From: a virus
Length of the DNA: 64,000 nt
Virus record (IMG/VR): IMGVR_UViG_3300031754_000002
Coordinates: 41,859 to 105,858 of that record
Reading direction: 5' to 3' (one strand)
Below, in pieces: positions 2,897-64,000 of the stretch (position 1 is the stretch's first letter; the number at the start of each line of letters is the position of its first letter). A program made the position numbers and the translations under genes. A model generated the notes under the pieces. It was not told where the DNA came from. It worked only from the letters and a program-made list of their open reading frames with translations, and did not search any database.

Positions 2897-4201
2897 CTAG
2901 TATTCCGCACTCACTTCTAGTCCACTGCCTTCCATATAGGCAAGGCCCGTCGGATAACGATGCAACGCTGCCGCATAGCCATGAAGCTGGAACCGTGCCT
3001 GCAACGTCCCGGACAGAACCTCCTTGAACACGCTCGTATGCTTCGGCGACTCGAACAACACACTGTCGGTCGGACGTGCGCACACAATCACGTCGCGGTT
3101 TTTCCCTGCCCCAAGAGTCGCAGGAATCGCATCTGACAAAAATGTCGGCCAGCCAAGGATCGGGGGAGCGACAGCAGGCCGCGAGTCATCGAACGTGTAC
3201 GCCACGGGAGGGAGCGCTTGATGCCCAGGAACCGCGAGAGGGAGGTTCTGCAAATCCTCAGCACCCCCGAGATAGCACCAGCGAGCGGTCCGCATCAACC
3301 ACACCTCCGGCGGACAGTTCCGTGCATCCCCCAGCTTTGCCGCGACCTGCGACAGCGCAGCGAACATTTCATAGCCCTGTTTACCCGTGTACTGCACTAC
3401 CGACACGCCACCCGCACCGGTAGTGAGATTCAGCACACCCGCGATTCGCTGGTTCGCTTTCCCCGTGCCAGTAAACAGCGACTCCTCAAGCCTGCGGTCA
3501 TAGGACTCCAACAGGTCCTTCAACACCACTACATCCAAGGCGGCAGTAGCCGGTGATTGTTCAAGCTGCTGCATCGAACAATCCGCCTGCCCCGCGAACG
3601 TCTCACACCACGATTCAACCGCCGCATCCGTGAAGTCCCGTTCCGGCGCAGGCGTGACATCAGATACTCCCGGCGCGTGAGTGCCTTCCACGATACGCGG
3701 CAGGTTCACTTCAACCACGCCCGTCGGCAAATCGAAAGTAGGGATCATGCTCGCGTAAACCCGCTTGGCCCTCGCGGCAGTGGCAAAATACTCATTGGCC
3801 CACCACGGCACCCCAAAAAACTCGCCACCAGTGACACGGCTAGGGTTCACACGAAACTCCGCGCCCTCAAGCCTCCGCTGCTGCAACCTTTCACTCTCAA
3901 CAGCAATCTCTTTGGCGTGACGCTCCAACCGTGCTCTCGCCCGCTGATCATTGCTGATCTGCGCACGCGCCACGTCCGCGAAGTAGCTTGCCTGCTCCTC
4001 GCGTGGAAGATGACCCTGAAAGCGTTCATACACCATCGGCTCACGACGTATCTCAACGCGCGGTGAAAGCCGCTGTAGCTCAGCATGGTACGCACGAGCG
4101 CTAACAACCGCTTCCGCCTCGATACGTGCCCGGACTTCGGCCGGGATCGCAGCGCCACGGTCCTCCTCGACAGTCTCGTCAAGCTCTAGCGTGTCGCTCA
4201 T
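2897..4201 (-). CDS. Major capsid protein, HK97 fold
   Basis: 434 aa downstream of the prohead protease. Capsid-like motifs: LEESLFTGTG, WLMRTARW, ILGWPTFLSDAIP. Confidence 0.85.
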   Translation of the reverse strand: MSDTLELDETVEEDRGAAIPAEVRARIEAEAVVSARAYHAELQRLSPRVEIRREPMVYERFQGHLPREEQASYFADVARAQISNDQRARARLERHAKEIAVESERLQQRRLEGAEFRVNPSRVTGGEFFGVPWWANEYFATAARAKRVYASMIPTFDLPTGVVEVNLPRIVEGTHAPGVSDVTPAPERDFTDAAVESWCETFAGQADCSMQQLEQSPATAALDVVVLKDLLESYDRRLEESLFTGTGKANQRIAGVLNLTTGAGGVSVVQYTGKQGYEMFAALSQVAAKLGDARNCPPEVWLMRTARWCYLGGAEDLQNLPLAVPGHQALPPVAYTFDDSRPAVAPPILGWPTFLSDAIPATLGAGKNRDVIVCARPTDSVLFESPKHTSVFKEVLSGTLQARFQLHGYAAALHRYPTGLAYMEGSGLEVSAEY

Positions 4202-5979
4202 CGCGCCAACCTCAACATGTCCAGTTCCTGCTCAGCACGACGCGTCAGATCAACCACAACAGCCGAGCGACCGTTCGTCTCCTCACTGTCATCAGCACCC
4301 TGAGCCTCATCAGCCTTACCGAGCGCGGTAGCAGCCGCTTCCAAAGCCTTCGTGACCTTCTCGTCGGACGGACTGTCCATATCACCGGTCTGTTCGGCTA
4401 GCGCCTTAGCAACAGCCTCTTTCGCCTCGTCGATCGAGTCAGACACACCCTCGTCAGCATCGTCTCTGGCCTCAGCCTCATACTCGGCGCGTAGCTCACG
4501 CACGCGCTCCGTGTACTCCTCGCCCTTCGCCGCTGCCTTCGCTTCCAGGCCCTCCCAGAACGATGCAGGCTCAGACTCCGACGGCAGTAGACCCGAAAGC
4601 TCGTCTCCGGCCTCCGCGAGCTTATCCACCAAGCCCTGAATCAACTGTTCCTTCGCAGACGACAACGCTTTACCCGCACGGAACTCATACTCGCCATCCG
4701 TTGAGCGAATACTTGTCGTGCTACCCGTTGACGGTGATGCGCCGAATGTGACGGCACTCACATCTCCGCCGTGCAAGGTCACACCCTTCACTTTGCGGTC
4801 AGTTAGCTCATCATTCCAGTCATCATCGGTGCAGCGAAACGCGAAACTCATCTGATCCACGAGCCCGCGCTCCATCTTCAGCTTTAGCCTCTGTGCATCC
4901 ACGTCCCGCGGGTCAAAGGTCGCGTTCACGAGCAGCCCCTTGGATGTTTCCTCCAGCCTCAACGTGCCCGGAATGTCCGAGTCCTTACGTTCCGTTCGTG
5001 CAAGCGGCAAGCCTTCGTGTTCCACTCGAAACACGCAATCCGGTTCCTCTTTCAATGTGCGGCGAAAACTGCCACGGGAAATAGTCTCCGTGAAGCCACC
5101 AACCGAATATGGCACATCAAAAAGTGACGCATATCCTTCAAAATGGAACATGCCATCATCGTCTTCGCTGCCGTCCCGGAACTCACATTCACGCACCGAG
5201 AACTGCCGGTGCTCCAAGCCCTTCGCGTTACGCAGATTTTCGACCCGCCGCTTACGCAGCTCAAACTGTGCGGCGCTACGCGAATCCTTCTCGATTTCGC
5301 CCGTGCCATCACAATCCGGGCACTCCTTACCCTTCACCTTGCCACTACCATCACACGTCGGGCACGTTTCCATGTCCTCAGTGTCGTTTTCCACCGCACG
5401 CCGACCATTCGCCTCCGGCGCATATGTGGTGACACGCCGCACCTTCTTAGGCGTCCCCAACGTCACATTATCATCGGCGTCCACCATGTACGTCACCTGC
5501 CACAACACGTCTTCGCGTTCATACACCGCCCACTCGTCAGTCATGTCCGAGATGTAGACGTAGGAATATTCGCCCTTTTTAGGCTTCGGGAGCGATTCGA
5601 CTATCGCCTGCTGCACCATCTGGCGACGGTCATTGTAGGTTTCGCGCTCCTCAAGCGTTGACCACACCGACTTTTCTTCTTTCAGCGATCCATCACTAGA
5701 CCAATTGTCGGGTATGAGCGAACTGAGTTTCAGCGCCTTGGCACGCTTAATGATGTGCGCACGGATTGAGTCATGGCTCGCATCTCCACGTCCGACCGCT
5801 TTGATCGCTTTTTTTAGGTCGTCTTCGTCCCCGATCGGGTACGAGCCATCGGCCATTGCTTCGCCTTTTTTTGCCATTTCGTCACGGTCGGCCTTCTTGT
5901 ACTTCGCGCGCCACTCCCGCTCAAGTGACCGTTCGACCGTCACGATGTCAGTCTCGACCGGCTCAGTCTCAACACCCAT
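4198..5979 (-). CDS. HK97-family prohead protease with N-terminal extra domains and an acidic C-terminal tail
   Basis: FEGYASLFD, FTETISRGSF, VEHEGLPLART, QMSFAF, DVSAVTFGA. Probable start MGVETE at 5979 after GGAGG. Confidence 0.85.
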   Translation of the reverse strand: MGVETEPVETDIVTVERSLEREWRAKYKKADRDEMAKKGEAMADGSYPIGDEDDLKKAIKAVGRGDASHDSIRAHIIKRAKALKLSSLIPDNWSSDGSLKEEKSVWSTLEERETYNDRRQMVQQAIVESLPKPKKGEYSYVYISDMTDEWAVYEREDVLWQVTYMVDADDNVTLGTPKKVRRVTTYAPEANGRRAVENDTEDMETCPTCDGSGKVKGKECPDCDGTGEIEKDSRSAAQFELRKRRVENLRNAKGLEHRQFSVRECEFRDGSEDDDGMFHFEGYASLFDVPYSVGGFTETISRGSFRRTLKEEPDCVFRVEHEGLPLARTERKDSDIPGTLRLEETSKGLLVNATFDPRDVDAQRLKLKMERGLVDQMSFAFRCTDDDWNDELTDRKVKGVTLHGGDVSAVTFGASPSTGSTTSIRSTDGEYEFRAGKALSSAKEQLIQGLVDKLAEAGDELSGLLPSESEPASFWEGLEAKAAAKGEEYTERVRELRAEYEAEARDDADEGVSDSIDEAKEAVAKALAEQTGDMDSPSDEKVTKALEAAATALGKADEAQGADDSEETNGRSAVVVDLTRRAEQELDMLRLAR

Positions 5980-6066
5980 GCGGACCTCCTTCGGAAACGA
6001 AAAGCCCGCAATTTGCGGGAAGTGAGCACAACGCACCTGTTAGCGTGTGCTAACGTCTGCGCGAAT

Positions 6067-6228
6067 GTGAAACAAACTGGGCTTCGACTAGAAGATGATC
6101 TACTTGCGCGGGTAGAAGCTGCTCGTGGTGACGTGCCACGTGAAGTGTTCCTTCGTCGCGCAATCGAACTTATGCTCAACACTAAACGAGAGGACTCCGA
6201 TGGCAGCACGACCCGCACTGGTTCCTGA
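6067..6228 (+). CDS. Ribbon-helix-helix (CopG/Arc-like) DNA-binding protein
   Basis: MKQTGLRLEDDLLARVEAARGDVPREVFLRRAIE fits the RHH pattern; divergent from the protease gene. Confidence 0.65.
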   Translation: MKQTGLRLEDDLLARVEAARGDVPREVFLRRAIELMLNTKREDSDGSTTRTGS

Positions 6229-6730
6229 ATCCGGCCCGTATGAGATTCTGCAAGGACTCATAGCCGAGGTGCTAGCCAACGGTGACTTTGTACCTGCGGA
6301 GGAAGCCCTGCGTATCGACAGGCTCATGCGCGAGAAGCATCCAAGACAACATGCTGCGTTTTTGGAGGCCCAGTCCTATCGCCTTTACTACGAGATACTG
6401 CAAGGTGCCTACCAAAGCCAGCGGCAGCGTTCGCGTCACCACGCTCCCGCTAGTGAATTCGGCCGACGTGCTACCGGCAAGCACGATGATGTCTCAGTGT
6501 TTATAACGTGGCGCTGCAAGGTAGACGATGCCAACACTCAGCGAACGATCGGCGACATGACCGGAGCCGATCATCTCTATGTCGCCGACAGCTATCGCGG
6601 CGATAAGCAACGCGCAGCGATGCTAGAGGCATTTCACCGTGCAGTCGCAAAGAAGGCTGGTAGGCGCAAAACAAGCGAGGTCTTTTCAGAGGACCAGTTC
6701 CTCGCACTCTACGAAAGCATCGCTAAATAG
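6200..6730 (+). CDS. Hypothetical protein, candidate accessory of the RAMP cassette
   Basis: Start MAARP at 6200 after GAGGA; overlaps the RHH gene; 176 aa, predominantly helical-looking. Confidence 0.65.
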   Translation: MAARPALVPESGPYEILQGLIAEVLANGDFVPAEEALRIDRLMREKHPRQHAAFLEAQSYRLYYEILQGAYQSQRQRSRHHAPASEFGRRATGKHDDVSVFITWRCKVDDANTQRTIGDMTGADHLYVADSYRGDKQRAAMLEAFHRAVAKKAGRRKTSEVFSEDQFLALYESIAK

Positions 6731-6746
6731 CACGACGGCCCTTGTT

Positions 6747-6875
6747 GACTGGCCCAGCCGTTGCACCTCCCCGCTGCCTTTCCGACTCCGCTGCCCACAC
6801 TGCTCCTGCCCCGCCCCACGCTCCCGACTCGTCATCACAGCTCCCAGCCGAACAGGCCTGCCCAATCCTCCCGAC
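6747..6875 (+). repeat. 5-nt-phased array A: three units GAC-(NNNNC)n-NNCC; candidate guide RNA array
   Basis: GAC at 6747, 6784, 6826 and 6873 gives spacings of 37, 42 and 47 (5n+2). Example unit: tcgtC atcaC agctC ccagC cgaaC aggcC tgccC aatcC tccc GAC. Confidence 0.75.
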
Positions 6876-6913
6876 CTCCTGAACTATTACTAACCAAAAC
6901 ACGAAAGGCCAAC

Positions 6914-7627
6914 ATGACCAGCATATTCGAGCCATACCGGCGCAAGAATTATCCGTATGTATTCGTCGCCTCGATCCACCTGCACACGATCGCGGGCGGC
7001 GTGCCCCTAAACGAGACAATTCTTGAGGGACACCTCAAGCGCAAGACCGCCGCACCCGATGACCTAATTCGCTCCGAGGTCGCCTCAATCATGGTCGAGG
7101 AGGGACTAAGTGCCGATGAGGCCATTGAGCGTGCCGCGAAACGCAAGGGCCTTGTGGGCTTTGCGAAGGACAGCAACGGCCTTTATGTGCGCGGCTTTCA
7201 AGTCAAGGCGATGCTTGTAGAATCGGCGTGCATCGCTGCCGCCGAGGGACGCATCCCGAAGAAATGGGGCCAAATGTCCGAGCAAGGAAAGGCACTCAAG
7301 AGTTGGTTTCCCGAGCATGTGTTTGTTCTCGATGACCGGATTCACCTCGGCGTGGACGAGCCCACCGAAATTCCACAGTCGTTTATACACAAGGTAGGCC
7401 CGAAGGGGCCGATGAGCGCTATCCAGTACACGGAGCTCGTCCGCGATGCCGACGTATCCTTCGCGGTCGAGACAGACCACGACTTTCCCGAGGATGTTTG
7501 GGCCGCGATTTGGCTCACAGCCGAGCGTAACGGCCTTGGCGCATCACGCAAGCTCGGCTATGGCACTTTTGAGAGCCGCAAATGGCAGAAAATGTCATCC
7601 CGTACCCGTAAACTTAAGGCCGCATAA
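6914..7627 (+). CDS. Stand-alone Cas7/RAMP-superfamily-like protein
   Basis: 237 aa from ATG 6914 after GAAAGG. N-terminal strand followed by GGVP; LYVRGFQVKAMLVESA resembles the RAMP IPGSSxKGxLR helix; C-terminal Gly-rich loop GLGASRKLGYGTF resembles the Csm3/Cas7 G-loop. Confidence 0.7.
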   Translation: MTSIFEPYRRKNYPYVFVASIHLHTIAGGVPLNETILEGHLKRKTAAPDDLIRSEVASIMVEEGLSADEAIERAAKRKGLVGFAKDSNGLYVRGFQVKAMLVESACIAAAEGRIPKKWGQMSEQGKALKSWFPEHVFVLDDRIHLGVDEPTEIPQSFIHKVGPKGPMSAIQYTELVRDADVSFAVETDHDFPEDVWAAIWLTAERNGLGASRKLGYGTFESRKWQKMSSRTRKLKAA

Positions 7628-7633
7628 TCTCTC

Positions 7634-7865
7634 GACACCGCCCGCTCGAAACACCGCACGAACCTGTCAGCCCATCCGACCAGTCAAACCAATCCGTCGC
7701 GCCTCGATACTATGCGCCGCACCCGACATTCCTCCTCGTCGATACCCCTCGGCCCCGCCTATCTCCCCATCCCTTCCGACAGCCCCCCGTCGCCCTCGCC
7801 CTCACAGTACGCCCCCTCTCTCTCGACACCCCTGCCGCGACACTCCGCACCCCTCCGCTTCCGAC
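7634..7865 (+). repeat. 5-nt-phased array B: CGAC-delimited units of (NNNNC)n; candidate guide RNA array
   Basis: CGAC delimiters with GAC at 7634, 7678, 7725, 7778, 7825 and 7863. Example unit: cagtC aaacC aatcC gtcgC gcctC gataC tatgC gccgC accc GAC. Confidence 0.75.
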
Positions 7866-7883
7866 TAACCGAAAGGACCACCG

Positions 7884-8921
7884 ATGACCGATGAGCCGAG
7901 TCGAAGCGACGAGATCAAGCACGTAGAAGGAGAGCTAAAGTCCCTTGCGAACCAAGTGGGCGTTGCGATAGGGCGTCTCCGTGCATTGCTCGGGGACGAG
8001 TTCGTCAAGAAGGTCCATGCCGCCGTGACTGGACGAGTTGCCTTTGACGAGGCGCAGCCGCTCACAGATGCGGATGCACGGGCATGGAGCGAGGCGAACC
8101 CCGGCAAGCAGGTACGTTTTACGGTGGAGTCCGAGGTCAAGCCCACAGGCGCCCGAAAGTTGGATGACTGGCTGGACGTGAAGGCACCCAAGGGCACCGT
8201 CGAGATCCGCAGCAATGAGATCAAGGAACTGGAGAAACAGCTAAAGGCGATCCCCGGTAAACTCACCGTTGCGGAGCTAGGCTGGATTCACAATCGTCTT
8301 GGCGAACTCTATAGGATGCCGGTGAAGGGCAACGCGGCACAGCAATCCTTTGCGCAAGCCTTCGGTATGGCACCATCGGAAATACATACGATCGAGGACG
8401 CGATTGTTGAGCTAGCCGACAAGCTCGGCGAGATGCGCACGGACATTACATCGCTCCGTCAGACCGTGGGCGAGCTGCAAACCCCGTTTGAGCCATACGA
8501 GCCGCCAGTGCTCGCCAAGATACTTCGTCCGCATCTGCTCGCGCTAGACGATCACGGTGAGGACGAGTGGGCTGAGGGATCGTTCGGCTGGGGTGAGTGT
8601 TTGTGGGTGCCCGGCAAGGTGGGCATTGATGTGACGGAGATCAAGGTTGAGGCGCTGGCCGCCGGGACGGACAATATACACGGCGCGCAAGTGAAAACCT
8701 ACGCCACCTATCGTGAAGACCACCACGATACCACACAGCGCGAACTTGTTGAGTGCATCGCGCGGGAGGCAGCTAAGCGGAACGCAACTGTTGTGTATCT
8801 CAGTAAGCCGGCGCATCGCCATATCCACGGCGACTATCCTGGCGACACGCCGCGTTTCCTACAGCACTGGTGTTATGCGGCGTTTTTGAGTGCGGCCCGC
8901 GCCGCCGGAGACGAGCAGTGA
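7884..8921 (+). CDS. Hypothetical protein
   Basis: 345 aa with a GAAAGGA RBS directly after array B. Confidence 0.6.
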   Translation: MTDEPSRSDEIKHVEGELKSLANQVGVAIGRLRALLGDEFVKKVHAAVTGRVAFDEAQPLTDADARAWSEANPGKQVRFTVESEVKPTGARKLDDWLDVKAPKGTVEIRSNEIKELEKQLKAIPGKLTVAELGWIHNRLGELYRMPVKGNAAQQSFAQAFGMAPSEIHTIEDAIVELADKLGEMRTDITSLRQTVGELQTPFEPYEPPVLAKILRPHLLALDDHGEDEWAEGSFGWGECLWVPGKVGIDVTEIKVEALAAGTDNIHGAQVKTYATYREDHHDTTQRELVECIAREAAKRNATVVYLSKPAHRHIHGDYPGDTPRFLQHWCYAAFLSAARAAGDEQ

Positions 8922-9367: not shown

Positions 9368-11846
9368 CTACTTAGCTGGCGTCAACACCTTCCCGTCACC
9401 GTTCGATGACGGCACAGCCGGCTCCGGTGCATACTTCGCTTCGATGGCCTGTTCCGCTTCCGCCATCACTTTTTCAAGTAGCGTCGTGTTAATCGGCGAG
9501 TTCAGTTTATCGCCGTCCGGCAACGCCGGCAGGTCGAACAGTGCTCGTGCGTCGTTCGGCGTGAAGTAGCCTCCGAGCGTCCCGAGCGAGCCAGCGTTCG
9601 CGCGCTCAAGGGTATCCCCGCGCAGACGGTGGCTCATGTCGATCGCCACGAACTGCCCTGGCGGGTGGATCGCGGTCATCGCGGCTTCGTAACGGCCCGT
9701 ATAGTCCTGCAACGTGTTTTTCGTAAAGCCTAGCTCCTGCTGCTCGATCCCCCGATAATCGACCCCACGAGTTGTGAACAACCACGCCTTCGGCTAGGAA
9801 GGAGTGATTACCCGCAACCGCGAGGTCATAGACTGGCACCTCAACTTTCGAGCGGTCGATTTTGATTACACGCTGCAAGATAACGTCGTCGTACTCCCAA
9901 CCGTAGCTCGGGCTCTGCCGGCGACCATCCCAGCCGCCAACGTTGCCGCCCGTCCATCCCTCGTCATAGCGCCCTAGTCGTATTGCTGGTCGAGTGACGA
10001 GTCGCGCCCGCTTACGCGCGCTATTGGCACCGATACGACTATTGAAGAACACAGTCGAGAGAGCAAGTTGATACTTCTGGCCCGACCGCACACGACGGCC
10101 AGCAATCACCGCGTCACACGGCGGTCGTCCCAGGTGGACTCGTCCAGCCGGAACACCCACTTGGATGCACAAGTGGCGGATATCCTCTAGCAGGAGTCGG
10201 TTACACGATGCGAAGCTAATCGCCCCTGCCTTGTTGACACTCCCGTCTGCGTCGAGATATCCGCGCAGGAATGCTAGCTGTAGCTCCGGCTTGAGTTCGT
10301 ACACCCAACCCGGCACTCGCTTTGTATGCGCGTCGCCCGTGAACCCGCAGTCGTCAAGCAGTTCGCGTGCGTCGGCCGACGAGAAGCGCGTCCTCGTGCC
10401 TGTGCGTATCCCCCGATTGGGTGCGTTGTCTGTGTAGGGTTCTACGCCGAACTCATCGCGTACGACCTGGCAGTAGTGCTCCATGTGATCGGGCTTGCTC
10501 TCGTGGGCGAGCTCGAAACGGTTTTTGTCCTGTGAGCCATCGCCCGTGTAGAGTCCACAAAGCTCCATCGCGCCGACCGTAAGCTGGCGCCCATTGGGCG
10601 CATACTCATCACCCTGGTCCCCGAAGCCATGAGGCACGAGCAGGTAATCCTTGATCGTAACCTCATCGGCGCGAACCCAAACCGTTTCCCAGGCGCAGTC
10701 GCCACTCGCACGGCCCTCTGGCCGTCCAAAGTATCGGCGCACTGGCAAAACATGGTTTGCCGTCAACTTGACAGTGCGAGCCGATGTCTGGATGCTCAGG
10801 AGAGGCTTGTGGCCGGTTAGTTGCCGCGAGACGACCGTTGCAGGCTCGATCCCGCGCTCACCGAGCGACCAAACCTCCTCGCCAGCCTGAATCTCGCAGA
10901 TTGGCCGTGGTCCCTGCGTCGTGAACACCTGCGCTTCGGCGGGCAGACACGAAACTCGTTCAGTCAGTCCGATCATGTGCGGGGGGCACCGAAAGATCGT
11001 GGATGCGATCTCTGATGCCGACCATTGAAGCGATTCTAGGAATTGGGAGTCCTGCGGGGATATCGTGATCGGCTTGATTTCCGTGTCACCCGTCACGACG
11101 GCTGGAAGATGCGAGCTATTCAAGCCCTGGTGCGCCGCCATAAACGAGCGAACCATTTTCTTTGTCTGGTCCGGCGACAGGTCACCCTTGACCTGGATCA
11201 CGATCGACGGGTTCGCGCTATTGCGGAAGTACTGTAGCCCATAGGTGGACTGCGAAAGCGACTTGCTAAACGCCAAGCGCTGCGCCTCAATTGGGTTAAT
11301 GCCTTCCAACATTCCCGGAAGCCAGAGGAGCTTGACGTGAAATACATCTTGCCTTGGCACAACTTTATTGAAGAACCGATACTGGAGTTCTCCTTTACGC
11401 AGCCGTTCGACATGCGCACTGTCGGCCGGTATGGGCTTGATCTGCGTCGGGTAGAGCTGCTTGTCGCGGCTGATGATCTGGCCGAAGAAGTTGCCACGAA
11501 TGGCGAGGGACGCGACGAACTGGACGATCCAGTCGAAAAGCCCAATCTCGCAGTATGGTTCGGTGAGGAGGGGAGAGGGTTTTAGCTCTTTCGCCTTTCG
11601 TAGTACCCTGTTGTTGAGCAGCAGAACGGGGGAGTTCGCTACCGAGCTAGAAAGAAGGTTAGCGCATGAGTAGACGGTCGCTATCGAGAGCGCCGCCTCT
11701 TGGCTTACACCCATGCCTCCAGACCCACCGAATCCCCCGATTTCTGAGTTCGTAGGCTACGGGGGAACGCTGTTGCCCCATTCGGTGCCCGGCCGCGCCG
11801 CGCGTGCGTCCATTGTCTGTGACAGCGCGCGAAGGATCAACGACAT
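9368..11846 (-). pseudogene. HK97-type portal protein with an intein; in-frame TAG near the N-terminus and a frameshift just after the intein
   Basis: Portal motifs ALSIATVYSC, LAIRGNFF, DSQFLES, FRCPPHMIG. C-terminus GIEQQELGF...TPNDARALFDLP lies in another frame (9368-9781). N-terminus reads MSLILRALS...NSVPP*PTNSEIG. Confidence 0.8.
9771..10949 (-). mobile_element. Intein in portal (Cys1, about 393 aa) with LAGLIDADG homing endonuclease
   Basis: S|CLPAEAQV ... TANH ... LCGLYTGDG ... FLRGYLDADG ... VYDLAV ... VVHN|S. Confidence 0.9.
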
Positions 11847-63456: not shown

Positions 63457-63640
63457 GGTAGTGGGTCAGTTTGGGATTCGTCCCCACGGGACAGGTTGCG
63501 GGGTCTAGTGTCGCTGGCAATCAGCCAAGCGGCCCCGGCGCGGATGGTAGTCCGACACCGGGGCCTTGACACGGAGGTGAAGCTCCATGCCCGACGAGAA
63601 CCCTACCCCCGACGAGCCTGCGCGCGACTTCGGCAACGTC
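63457..63640 (+). mobile_element. Truncated left end of an IS1-family element related to 15158-18006
   Basis: IR GGTAGTGGGTCAGTTTG plus about 180 bp closely matching 15158-15340, including the start of the passenger ORF MPDENPTPDEPARDFGN. Confidence 0.85.
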
Positions 63641-64000
63641 GACCCCGACCGCGACCACGACCGCGACCACGACCCGAGGACAGCCGTGCCGGTCACGACG
63701 ACCACGACCACGACCACGACCGCGACCACGACCACGACCACGACCCCGACCCCGACCGCGACCACGACCGCGACCGCGACCACGACCCCGACCGCGACCA
63801 CGACCGCGACCGCGACCACGACCACGACCGCGATCCCGACCACGACCACGACCCGAGGACAGCCGTGCCGGTCACGACGACCACGACCACGACCACGACC
63901 GCGATCCCGACCACGACCACGACCCCGACCCCGACCGCGACCACGACCGCGACCGCGACCACGACCCCGACCGCGACCTCGACCGCGACCGCGACCACGA
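63641..64000 (-). repeat. Hexamer repeat (TCG-NGG)n forming tandem 179-bp units, each encoding MTGTAVLG-(S[WRG])n
   Basis: GTGACCGGCACGGCTGTCCTCGGG starts at 63875 and 63696; each GTG overlaps the TGA of the previous unit. Confidence 0.8.

What the first reader, a model, noticed from the sequence alone, without database searches (positions are those of the whole stretch)
7634..7865. Array B repeats the same grammar downstream, with regular and degenerate units
Seen: regular units at 7681 (8 pentamers, all ending in C), 7744 (6 pentamers, opened by GAT instead of GAC) and 7781 (8 pentamers). Off-register units occur at 7637, 7728 and 7828. By hand count over the six regular units of both arrays, position 5 is C in 40 of 43 pentamers and T in the other 3. 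Positions 3-4 are C about half the time and positions 1-2 are free (NNccC). Both arrays end in a similar ACTAACC...CGAAAGG leading into the next RBS. Inference: the same grammar arising on both sides of the RAMP gene argues for function, and the irregular units may be decaying or still-diversifying guides.
Basis: partly seen in the sequence, partly recalled or inferred. Interest (0 to 1): 0.8.

Follow-up and report, generated by a model that had tools for sequence, protein, structure and literature searches.

The report
Phage VIPR guide-RNA array, C-anchored
The C-rich spacer after the Cas7-like gene is a real five-base-step repeat array of a VIPR system, a CRISPR-related, phage-borne RNA-guided DNA silencer first described in 2026 preprints. 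Here the fixed letter is C on the gene's own strand, not the published G-G-pyrimidine.

Summary
Array B (7628-7883) contains three regular units at 7681, 7744 and 7781, with 8, 6 and 8 NNNNC pentamers. Each closes with a 7-nt NNNCGAC. Position 5 over the six regular units of both arrays is C 40, T 3. No dinucleotide shuffle (0 of 3000) reproduces the anchored grammar.

The feature is conserved. The 237-aa gene between the arrays folds as a Cas7/Csm3-type RAMP. It matches the Vipr family of Escherichia phage SUSP1 by profile-profile comparison (95%, E 2.4e-8). Of 146 related viral and metagenomic loci, 103 carry the same array next to this gene. 94% of array bases are C-rich on the gene's strand.

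In relatives, positions 1-4 change about as fast as third codon positions. The phased C and the GAC change 3-7 times more slowly.

This is therefore a VIPR locus (bioRxiv 10.64898/2026.04.26.720920): Vipr, a partner gene and vrRNA arrays. It is a known kind in a divergent, C-anchored branch.

Which strand is the RNA remains unproven. Gene layout, terminators and missing guanine-contact residues favour the C-rich sense strand (about 70%).

No target was found for this phage's guides. The scan has met this C-anchored branch before on other genomes.

The parts
6039..6054 (.). Palindrome GTTAGC-N4-GCTAAC upstream of the RHH gene. Candidate operator of the cassette promoter.
   Evidence: Sequence read. 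Function inferred only.
6067..6228 (+). Small ribbon-helix-helix (CopG-like) gene heading the cassette. Its end overlaps the start of the next gene.
   Evidence: Translation. Pfam RHH_1 E 0.007, below the curated cut-off.
6200..6730 (+). g1: 176-aa helical, Arg-rich partner gene (Vap-like accessory). It is conserved next to the Vipr gene in relatives.
   Evidence: tblastn and clustering put it in 38 of the first 81 loci. Alignment A2. AF2 pLDDT 89.6. No PDB fold match. No Pfam or PADLOC family.
6731..6913 (+). Array A. Regular units are 6750-6786 (6 pentamers + TTCCGAC), 6787-6828 (7 + TCCCGAC) and 6829-6875 (8 + TCCCGAC). The junction ACTAACC..GAAAGG holds the ribosome-binding site of g2.
   Evidence: 21 pentamers, 0 of 3000 shuffles. 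Called by the HMM.
6914..7627 (+). g2: 237-aa Vipr homolog, a minimal Cas7-like RAMP with the G-loop GLGASRKLGYG.
   Evidence: AF2 pLDDT 86.6. Foldseek E 7e-7 to type VII Cas7 and Csm3. VIA-align Z 10-11, with all top 50 hits being CRISPR RAMPs. hhalign to the SUSP1 Vipr family: 95.3%, E 2.4e-8. PADLOC Csm4 E 0.003.
7628..7883 (+). Array B, the finding. Degenerate lead unit 7637-7680. Regular units 7681-7727, 7744-7780 and 7781-7827. Short or off-register units 7728-7743, 7828-7841 and 7842-7865. Junction 7866-7883 holds the ribosome-binding site of g3.
   Evidence: 22 pentamers, 0 of 3000 shuffles.
7884..8921 (+). g3: 345-aa gene directly after Array B. It has a coiled-coil stretch and is not detectably conserved in related loci. 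Whether it belongs to the system is unknown.
   Evidence: ORF. Weak DUF7310 only. No tblastn match in relatives. No PADLOC family.
6005..6019 (-). Minus-strand terminator-like hairpin with a T-run, just upstream of the prohead protease gene. It would stop any minus-strand transcript that crossed the cassette.
   Evidence: Consensus scan. A pattern match only.

Best explanation
Array B, together with Array A, is a guide-RNA (vrRNA) array of a VIPR system. The cassette RHH-g1-ArrayA-g2-ArrayB-g3 is a self-contained plus-strand operon. It is inserted against the grain between the portal and prohead-protease genes of a 106-kb soil phage.

Shown:
- g2 is a Vipr-type minimal RAMP.
- The arrays are non-coding and stepped in fives. 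They have one fixed C per step and are cut into units of 6-8 steps by CGAC.
- This pairing and grammar are kept under selection across more than 100 divergent phages, while the free letters turn over.

Inferred by homology with the SUSP1 system (bioRxiv 10.64898/2026.04.26.720920 and .720927):
- One Vipr protomer binds each pentamer and sequesters the fixed letters.
- The protomer presents the two free letters (positions 1-2) to pair with double-stranded target DNA, skipping every third base.
- Each unit therefore reads about 6-9 codons' worth of a rival element's gene and silences it.

Inferred here, at about 70%:
- The RNA is the C-rich sense strand, made as part of the operon transcript.
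- CGAC marks the unit boundaries, in a tail-less, head-to-tail layout.
For: 1. RAMP fold and Vipr homology of g2.

2. Conserved pairing. 103 of 146 non-duplicate related loci have a same-strand array within 400 nt of the gene, and most of the rest are cut at the gene. The cultured Microcystis phage Mae-JY09 has an unannotated array right after its homolog.

3. Grammar in relatives.
- C at +9, +14, +19... after CCGAC is 67-80% over 1268 sites.
- In the HMM parse, position 5 is C in 86% and position 4 is a pyrimidine in 83%.
- Unit sizes peak at 6-8 pentamers.
- CGAC spacing is flat mod 3, so the tract is not coding.

4. Selection. Mismatch fractions between relatives are 0.15-0.17 at positions 1-4, 0.055 at position 5 and 0.023 at GAC. 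Third codon positions of g2 give 0.152. Unit-sized indels separate 95-99.9%-identical phages.

5. Guide rule. The L010 unit TT AG CA CC TC GC AC TT matches 16 of 16 letters at the KVAEGWLK site of vipr in 21 other loci. The skipped bases fall on wobble positions. L010's own gene matches 14 of 16.

6. Sense strand.
- Arrays run to within 10-30 nt of the g2 start and merge into its ribosome-binding site.
- Strong plus-strand intrinsic terminators sit directly after downstream arrays in L041, L064 and L049.
- The few opposite-strand arrays keep a gap of about 125 nt, as a divergent promoter would need.
- In the SUSP1 family, 244 phased GG runs lie on the vipr strand against 5 CC runs. Co-orientation is therefore the family norm, and SUSP1 vrRNAs are shown by sRNA-seq.
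- The guanine-contacting residues of SUSP1 Vipr (D177, W178, R138) align to A, S and T in g2, while R179 is kept.
Against: - No RNA data exist for this phage. Transcription, processing and protein binding are all unshown.
- The published consensus is G-based. The preprint lists NNNGG and NNNNG variants, which are the reverse complement of what is seen here. The G-rich strand could therefore be the RNA.
- No target was found for any unit of this window.
- In a 2-Mb local set, the 1-nt-skip rule is not enriched over other rules or shuffles. Guide function in this clade therefore rests on homology plus one match with an estimated chance probability of about 0.03.
- The hhalign match covers only the C-terminal two thirds of the protein.
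Confidence: 0.8

Rival explanations
1. The locus is the same VIPR system, but the functional RNA is the G-rich minus strand. That would make it the (NNNNG)n / (NNNGG)n type named in the preprint, punctuated by GUC. It would be transcribed antisense to the vipr operon, here perhaps by read-through of the late head operon.
For: - The reverse complement reads G (86%), R (83%), weak, N, N. This is the same strong-strong-weak-N-N order as the published GGY/NN.
- The preprint lists NNNGG, YNNNG and NNNNG repeats.
- In this phage the flanking portal and protease genes are on the minus strand. A minus-strand terminator lies at 6005-6019.
Against: - There is no room for an antisense promoter between the array and the g2 start.
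- Plus-strand terminators follow the arrays.
- Arrays are co-oriented with vipr in the experimentally tested family.
- The G-contact residues are not conserved.
- Many related loci have all genes on one strand, with no obvious antisense transcription.
Confidence: 0.24
2. The tracts are not guides. They would be protein-loading or regulatory leader RNA. Two candidates are a Rho-loading (rut-like) C-rich, G-poor untranslated stretch, or a scaffold or decoy on which g2 polymerises without reading any target.
For: - The composition is C-rich and G-poor, with a YC dinucleotide every 5 nt.
- The free positions drift at about the neutral rate.
- No targets were found for this window.
- No rule is enriched in the local set.
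Against: - Rho loading does not explain the exact 5-nt quantisation, the CGAC punctuation or the strict pairing with a Vipr homolog.
- Hypervariable free letters are what the VIPR guide model predicts.
- The L010 unit matches vipr in codon phase.
Confidence: 0.07
3. The pattern is a chance or compositional artefact, or a hidden proline-rich coding region.
For: - Global period-5 Fourier power is not significant in the window alone.
- Long open frames run through C-rich tracts.
Against: - 0 of 3000 shuffles reach the anchored grammar.
- The pattern recurs in more than 100 loci with phase-specific conservation.
- Relatives show no lag-3 signal, and unit spacing is flat mod 3.
Confidence: 0.01

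Closest known systems
VIPR type II system of Escherichia phage SUSP1 (Vipr + vap1 + four vrRNAs; bioRxiv 10.64898/2026.04.26.720920 and 10.64898/2026.04.26.720927)
   Same: - It is phage-borne, with a lone minimal RAMP homologous to g2.
- A small partner gene sits beside it.
- Pentamer-repeat arrays lie in the intergenic DNA directly up- and downstream on the gene's strand.
- The repeats have two free letters per step.
- Neither locus has cas1/2 or CRISPR repeats.
   Different: - The fixed letters here are (c)YC, or only C, instead of GGY.
- Units are 6-9 steps long, ended by CGAC and placed head to tail. SUSP1 has about 100-nt vrRNAs, each with a roughly 40-nt structured 3' tail.
- Arrays in relatives reach 2 kb (about 45 units).
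- The protein is 237 aa against 195 aa, with about 18% identity over the aligned part and the G-contact residues replaced.
- The partner gene is unrelated in sequence.
Non-canonical VIPR types: NNNGG / YNNNG / NNNNG repeats and 'staggered' tail-less arrays (same preprint, Methods and fig. S18 legend), and non-GGY motifs such as GAC/NN and CAC/NN (bioRxiv 10.64898/2026.10.21.760802)
   Same: - Divergent fixed letters.
- Arrays in which the end of one unit is the start of the next.
- A Vipr-like fold encoded beside the array.
   Different: The texts I could read give G-based or other motifs, and no C-anchored motif on the coding strand. The figures and tables were not available. I therefore cannot tell whether this clade is one of their types drawn on the other strand.
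Class 1 CRISPR-Cas backbone (Cas7/Csm3/Cmr4 filament on crRNA)
   Same: The fold is the same (Z 10-11). The logic is also the same: one protomer per fixed step of the guide, with flipped bases between the paired segments.
   Different: - The step is 5 nt, not 6.
- There are no 25-40-nt direct repeats.
- There are no adaptation or nuclease genes.
- The guide letters are non-contiguous.

Membership tests
VIPR system | Vipr protein: a minimal single-RRM RAMP with G-loop and thumb, homologous to published Vipr | tested here: met
   AF2 model pLDDT 86.6. Z 10-11 to Csm3 and type VII Cas7. hhalign A1 vs the SUSP1 Vipr family A3: 95.3%, E 2.4e-8, 135 columns including the G-loop.
VIPR system | Tandem pentanucleotide repeats (fixed letters alternating with a hypervariable NN) in the intergenic DNA flanking vipr | tested here: met
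   Searches show period 5, position 5 fixed and positions 1-2 free. The free letters evolve at about the synonymous rate.
VIPR system | Fixed motif GGY on the strand of the vrRNA (canonical types) | tested here: not met
   On the vipr strand the fixed letters are C (86%), preceded by Y (83%). In this window only the C is fixed, 40 of 43. The reverse complement gives G-R, i.e. NNNNG/NNNGG, which the preprint allows as a 'related consensus'.
VIPR system | Adjacent accessory gene (vap) | tested here: inconclusive
   g1 is a conserved neighbour. It has no family or fold match, and I could not compare it with vap1-6.
VIPR system | Viral or proviral location, with no cas genes and no CRISPR array | tested here: met
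   The record is a complete 105.9-kb virus record. The cassette lies between portal and protease. Repeat finders show no CRISPR-type repeats.
VIPR system | vrRNAs are expressed, processed and bound by Vipr | not testable with these tools
   No RNA run is listed for this DNA.
VIPR system | Targets are read by the 1-nt-skip rule (NNx), often with the skip on codon wobble positions | tested here: inconclusive
   One unit of relative L010 matches vipr 16 of 16 in codon phase. The rule is not enriched in a 2-Mb local set. Exact IMG/VR hits of units 7681 and 7781 look random.
VIPR system | Conserved structured 3' tail after each repeat tract (type II) | tested here: not met
   Units are separated only by CGAC, or by a 7-nt NNNCGAC here. 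This resembles the tail-less 'staggered' layout of fig. S18.
CRISPR-Cas (class 1) | Array of identical 23-50-nt direct repeats with unique spacers, plus cas genes besides a Cas7 | tested here: not met
   No such repeats. Neighbours carry no cas family. The step is 5 nt, not 6.
Rho-utilisation (rut) site | C-rich, G-poor unstructured untranslated RNA with YC dimers | tested here: inconclusive
   The composition fits. The exact 5-nt quantisation, the CGAC punctuation and the obligate Vipr neighbour are not features of rut sites.

The most novel reading that the evidence does not exclude
In this large soil-phage clade the vrRNA is the C-rich sense strand. Vipr would then have switched its fixed-letter pocket from G-G-pyrimidine to (pyrimidine-)C. 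The guides would be made as tail-less units of 6-9 steps, cut or delimited at CGAC, out of the operon's own intercistronic RNA. This would be a second, 'mirror' dialect of the non-contiguous code, in arrays of up to about 45 guides.
Probability: 0.6. Interest if true: 0.55.

Novelty: new variant of a known kind. Interest (0 to 1): 0.4.

Why it matters
VIPR is a months-old class that is claimed to predate CRISPR, and only the GGY type II system has been dissected. This locus belongs to a clade with over 200 homologs in soil metagenomes.

If the clade truly uses C-anchored, sense-strand, tail-less guides, several things follow:
- The protein-RNA lock of the non-contiguous code can be re-keyed.
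- There would be a second scaffold for programmable DNA binding.
- Arrays of dozens of guides would be available for mapping phage-versus-phage conflict in soil.

If instead the G-rich strand is the RNA, the clade is an unusual case of guide arrays kept antisense inside their own operon.

Either way, the present locus adds no new principle. It is a clean, complete example. It also has a cultured relative (Mae-JY09) in which the strand question could be settled.

Tried and rejected
The closest homologs (80-82% identity) could not be fetched.
- A single-protein scan of viral contigs found nothing. The alignment scan did find relatives.
- Tandem Repeats Finder and the repeat finder see no array, because the units are not copies of each other.
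- Global Fourier period-5 is not significant in the window.
- No RNA holder is listed for this DNA.
- Rfam has no match on either strand at E up to 1. The sigma-70 consensus scan found 0 promoters in the cassette.
- My HMM also called window 63636-64000, genome 1-351, genome 11732-11830 and genome 20656-20860. The first two are a hexamer coding repeat. The last two are poorly phased stretches inside minus-strand ORFs.
- Coding reading rejected: no lag-3 signal, and spacing is flat mod 3.
- Target searches:
  - Exact 1-nt-skip patterns of units 7681 and 7781 in IMG/VR gave 16 hits and 1 hit. The 16 lie in unrelated ORFs of mostly low-GC phages with no mutual homology, which is about the number expected by chance.
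  - Best local matches of the Array B units equal the shuffled controls. The Array A rows of that call were one base out of phase and are void.
  - A comparison of skip rules on 260 units in a 2-Mb local set showed no enrichment.
  - The first attempt at that search timed out.
- The g1 model has no Foldseek match in the PDB and no PDB sequence match.

Full report
**What is there.** The window is the right-hand 64 kb of a complete 105.9-kb virus record from a soil metagenome. Between the minus-strand portal gene (9606-11714, carrying an intein) and the prohead protease and capsid genes (4198-6036, 2897-4201) lies a plus-strand cassette. In order it holds:
- a small RHH gene (6067-6228);
- g1 (6200-6730, 176 aa);
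- Array A (6731-6913);
- g2 (6914-7627, 237 aa);
- Array B (7628-7883);
- g3 (7884-8921).

**The observation.** Array B is 50% C and 16% G, and Array A is 46% C and 17% G. They are the two most C-skewed 150-nt windows in the 64 kb. Units at 7681, 7744 and 7781 hold 8, 6 and 8 pentamers ending in C (one in T), and each closes with a 7-nt NNNCGAC. Array A has matching units at 6750, 6787 and 6829. Over the 43 pentamers, position 5 is C 40 and T 3. Repeat finders see nothing, because the units are not copies of one another. A global Fourier test fails, because each punctuation shifts the phase by two. The anchored grammar is never reached in 3000 dinucleotide-preserving shuffles of either array. 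That statistic was chosen after the fact.

**The neighbouring gene.** g2 has no Pfam or PHROG family. It has 95 metagenomic homologs in the word-index search and hundreds of loci in the contig collections. Its AlphaFold model (pLDDT 86.6) matches only CRISPR RAMPs of the Cas7 group. Foldseek gives E 7e-7. VIA-align gives Z 10-11, and all top 50 hits are Csm3, type VII Cas7, Cas7-11, Cmr4 or Csf2.

**Comparative evidence.** I fetched 160 related loci.
- A strong C-over-G tract of 150-2000 nt sits directly beside the g2 homolog in most of them.
- Pooled over 90 kb, C autocorrelation peaks at lags 5, 10 and 15, with nothing at lag 3.
- CGACTA and CCGACT are 10-15-fold enriched.
- CGAC-to-CGAC spacings pile up at 28, 33, 38, 43 and 48 and are flat mod 3.
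- C frequency after 1268 CCGAC sites oscillates between about 0.35 and 0.8 in exact steps of five.

A small HMM of this grammar finds only Arrays A and B in intergenic DNA of the whole phage genome. Among 146 non-duplicate loci it finds a same-strand array within 400 nt of the gene in 103. Most of the others are contigs cut at the gene. Array bases total 71.7 kb on the gene's strand against 4.3 kb on the other. Position 5 is C in 86% of 14,000 pentamers and position 4 is a pyrimidine in 83%. Units peak at 6-8 pentamers. The closest relative, L002, shares this window's 7-nt punctuation, whereas most clades use 3 nt. The cultured Microcystis phage Mae-JY09 has an unannotated array immediately after its homolog.

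**Evolution.** Phages whose flanking genes are 91-99.9% identical differ by unit-sized indels, or have arrays that no longer align. Where arrays do align, positions 1-4 differ at 0.15-0.17 per site, like third codon positions of g2 (0.152). Position 5 differs at 0.055 and GAC at 0.023.

**What it is.** A literature search found that this kind of system was described in 2026 as VIPR. A VIPR system has a phage-encoded minimal RAMP (Vipr), an accessory gene (vap) and vrRNAs of 9-16 YNNGG repeats. The NN letters read double-stranded DNA while skipping every third base. The class has seven types. These include NNNGG, YNNNG and NNNNG repeats and tail-less 'staggered' arrays (bioRxiv 10.64898/2026.04.26.720920). 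Further non-GGY motifs are in 10.64898/2026.10.21.760802.

I located the SUSP1 locus and built its Vipr family. Profile-profile homology with the g2 family gave probability 95.3% and E 2.4e-8 over 135 columns, including helix 1 and the G-loop. So g2 is a Vipr, g1 is its conserved partner, and Arrays A and B are its vrRNA arrays.

**Guide rule.** Using positions 1-2 as NN, one unit of relative L010 spells AAn GTn GCn GAn GGn TGn CTn AA. This is the KVAEGWLK site of vipr, matched 16 of 16 in 21 other loci with every skip on a wobble base. L010's own gene matches 14 of 16. The preprint reports VIPRs that target other VIPRs.

This is one event, with an estimated chance probability of about 0.03. 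In my 2-Mb local set the 1-nt-skip rule is not otherwise enriched. For this window's own units I found no target. Exact IMG/VR hits of units 7681 and 7781 are in unrelated genes at about the chance number. Local best matches equal the shuffled controls.

**Which strand.** The published fixed letters are G; here they are C on the vipr strand. Either the arrays are antisense to the operon, or this clade uses C.

Evidence for the sense strand:
- The arrays run into the ribosome-binding site of g2, leaving 10-30 nt.
- Canonical plus-strand terminators follow downstream arrays in L041, L064 and L049.
- The rare opposite-strand arrays keep a gap of about 125 nt, as a divergent promoter would need.
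- In 80 SUSP1-type loci, the arrays are co-oriented with vipr 244 to 5.
- The residues that grip the two guanines in the SUSP1 structure (D177, W178, R138; 10.64898/2026.04.26.720927) align to A, S and T in g2.

Evidence for the antisense strand:
- The reverse complement has the same strong-strong-weak-N-N order as GGY/NN.
- The preprint's NNNNG class may be this clade.

I put the sense strand at about 70%. No RNA run holds this DNA.

**Verdict.** The system is a member of a kind published in 2026, in a divergent C-anchored, CGAC-punctuated branch. Earlier notes of this scan describe the same branch on other genomes. I reached the grammar, the homology and the strand arguments from my own calls before reading those notes.

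Noticed in passing
window 63588-64000 (continues at genome 1-351): An ORF made of hexamer repeats (CACGAC/CGCGAC/CCCGAC), coding His-Asp, Arg-Asp and Pro-Asp dipeptide repeats. It runs off the end of the record and resumes at its start, so the record is probably circularly permuted or terminally repeated. It fooled my array HMM but has period 6, not 5.
   Followed up: partly
window 9606-11714 (-): The portal gene carries an intein with a LAGLIDADG homing-endonuclease domain.
   Followed up: no
window 4198-6036 (-): The 612-aa prohead protease has an N-terminal extension with a CXXCXGXG zinc-ribbon (weak DnaJ central domain and anti-TRAP-like hits). Its likely real start is the ATG at about 5981, after a GAAGGAGG ribosome-binding site.
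   Followed up: no
L010:4412-4975 (unit TTCCC AGCCC CACCC CCCAC TCGCC GCTCC ACCTC TTACC): Under the 1-nt-skip rule, a guide unit of a related phage matches 16 of 16 letters at a conserved KVAEGWLK-coding site in the vipr genes of 21 other loci. Its own vipr differs at the last dinucleotide (14 of 16). This looks like VIPR-versus-VIPR targeting.
   Followed up: partly
L162:3676-4055 (PP395641.1 38469-38848): Microcystis phage Mae-JY09 (this stretch is 72% G+C) has an unannotated array of about 13 units right after its Vipr homolog, followed by a strong hairpin. It is a cultured system in which the RNA strand could be tested.
   Followed up: partly
L005:3090-4960 and L044:6158-8212: Related phages carry arrays of 1.9-2.1 kb (about 45 units), far larger than the arrays described for SUSP1.
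   Followed up: partly
window 6005-6019 (-): A minus-strand hairpin with a T-run lies between the cassette and the protease gene. Late head-operon transcription crossing the cassette in antisense may be stopped here, which would leave the protease and capsid genes needing their own promoter.
   Followed up: no
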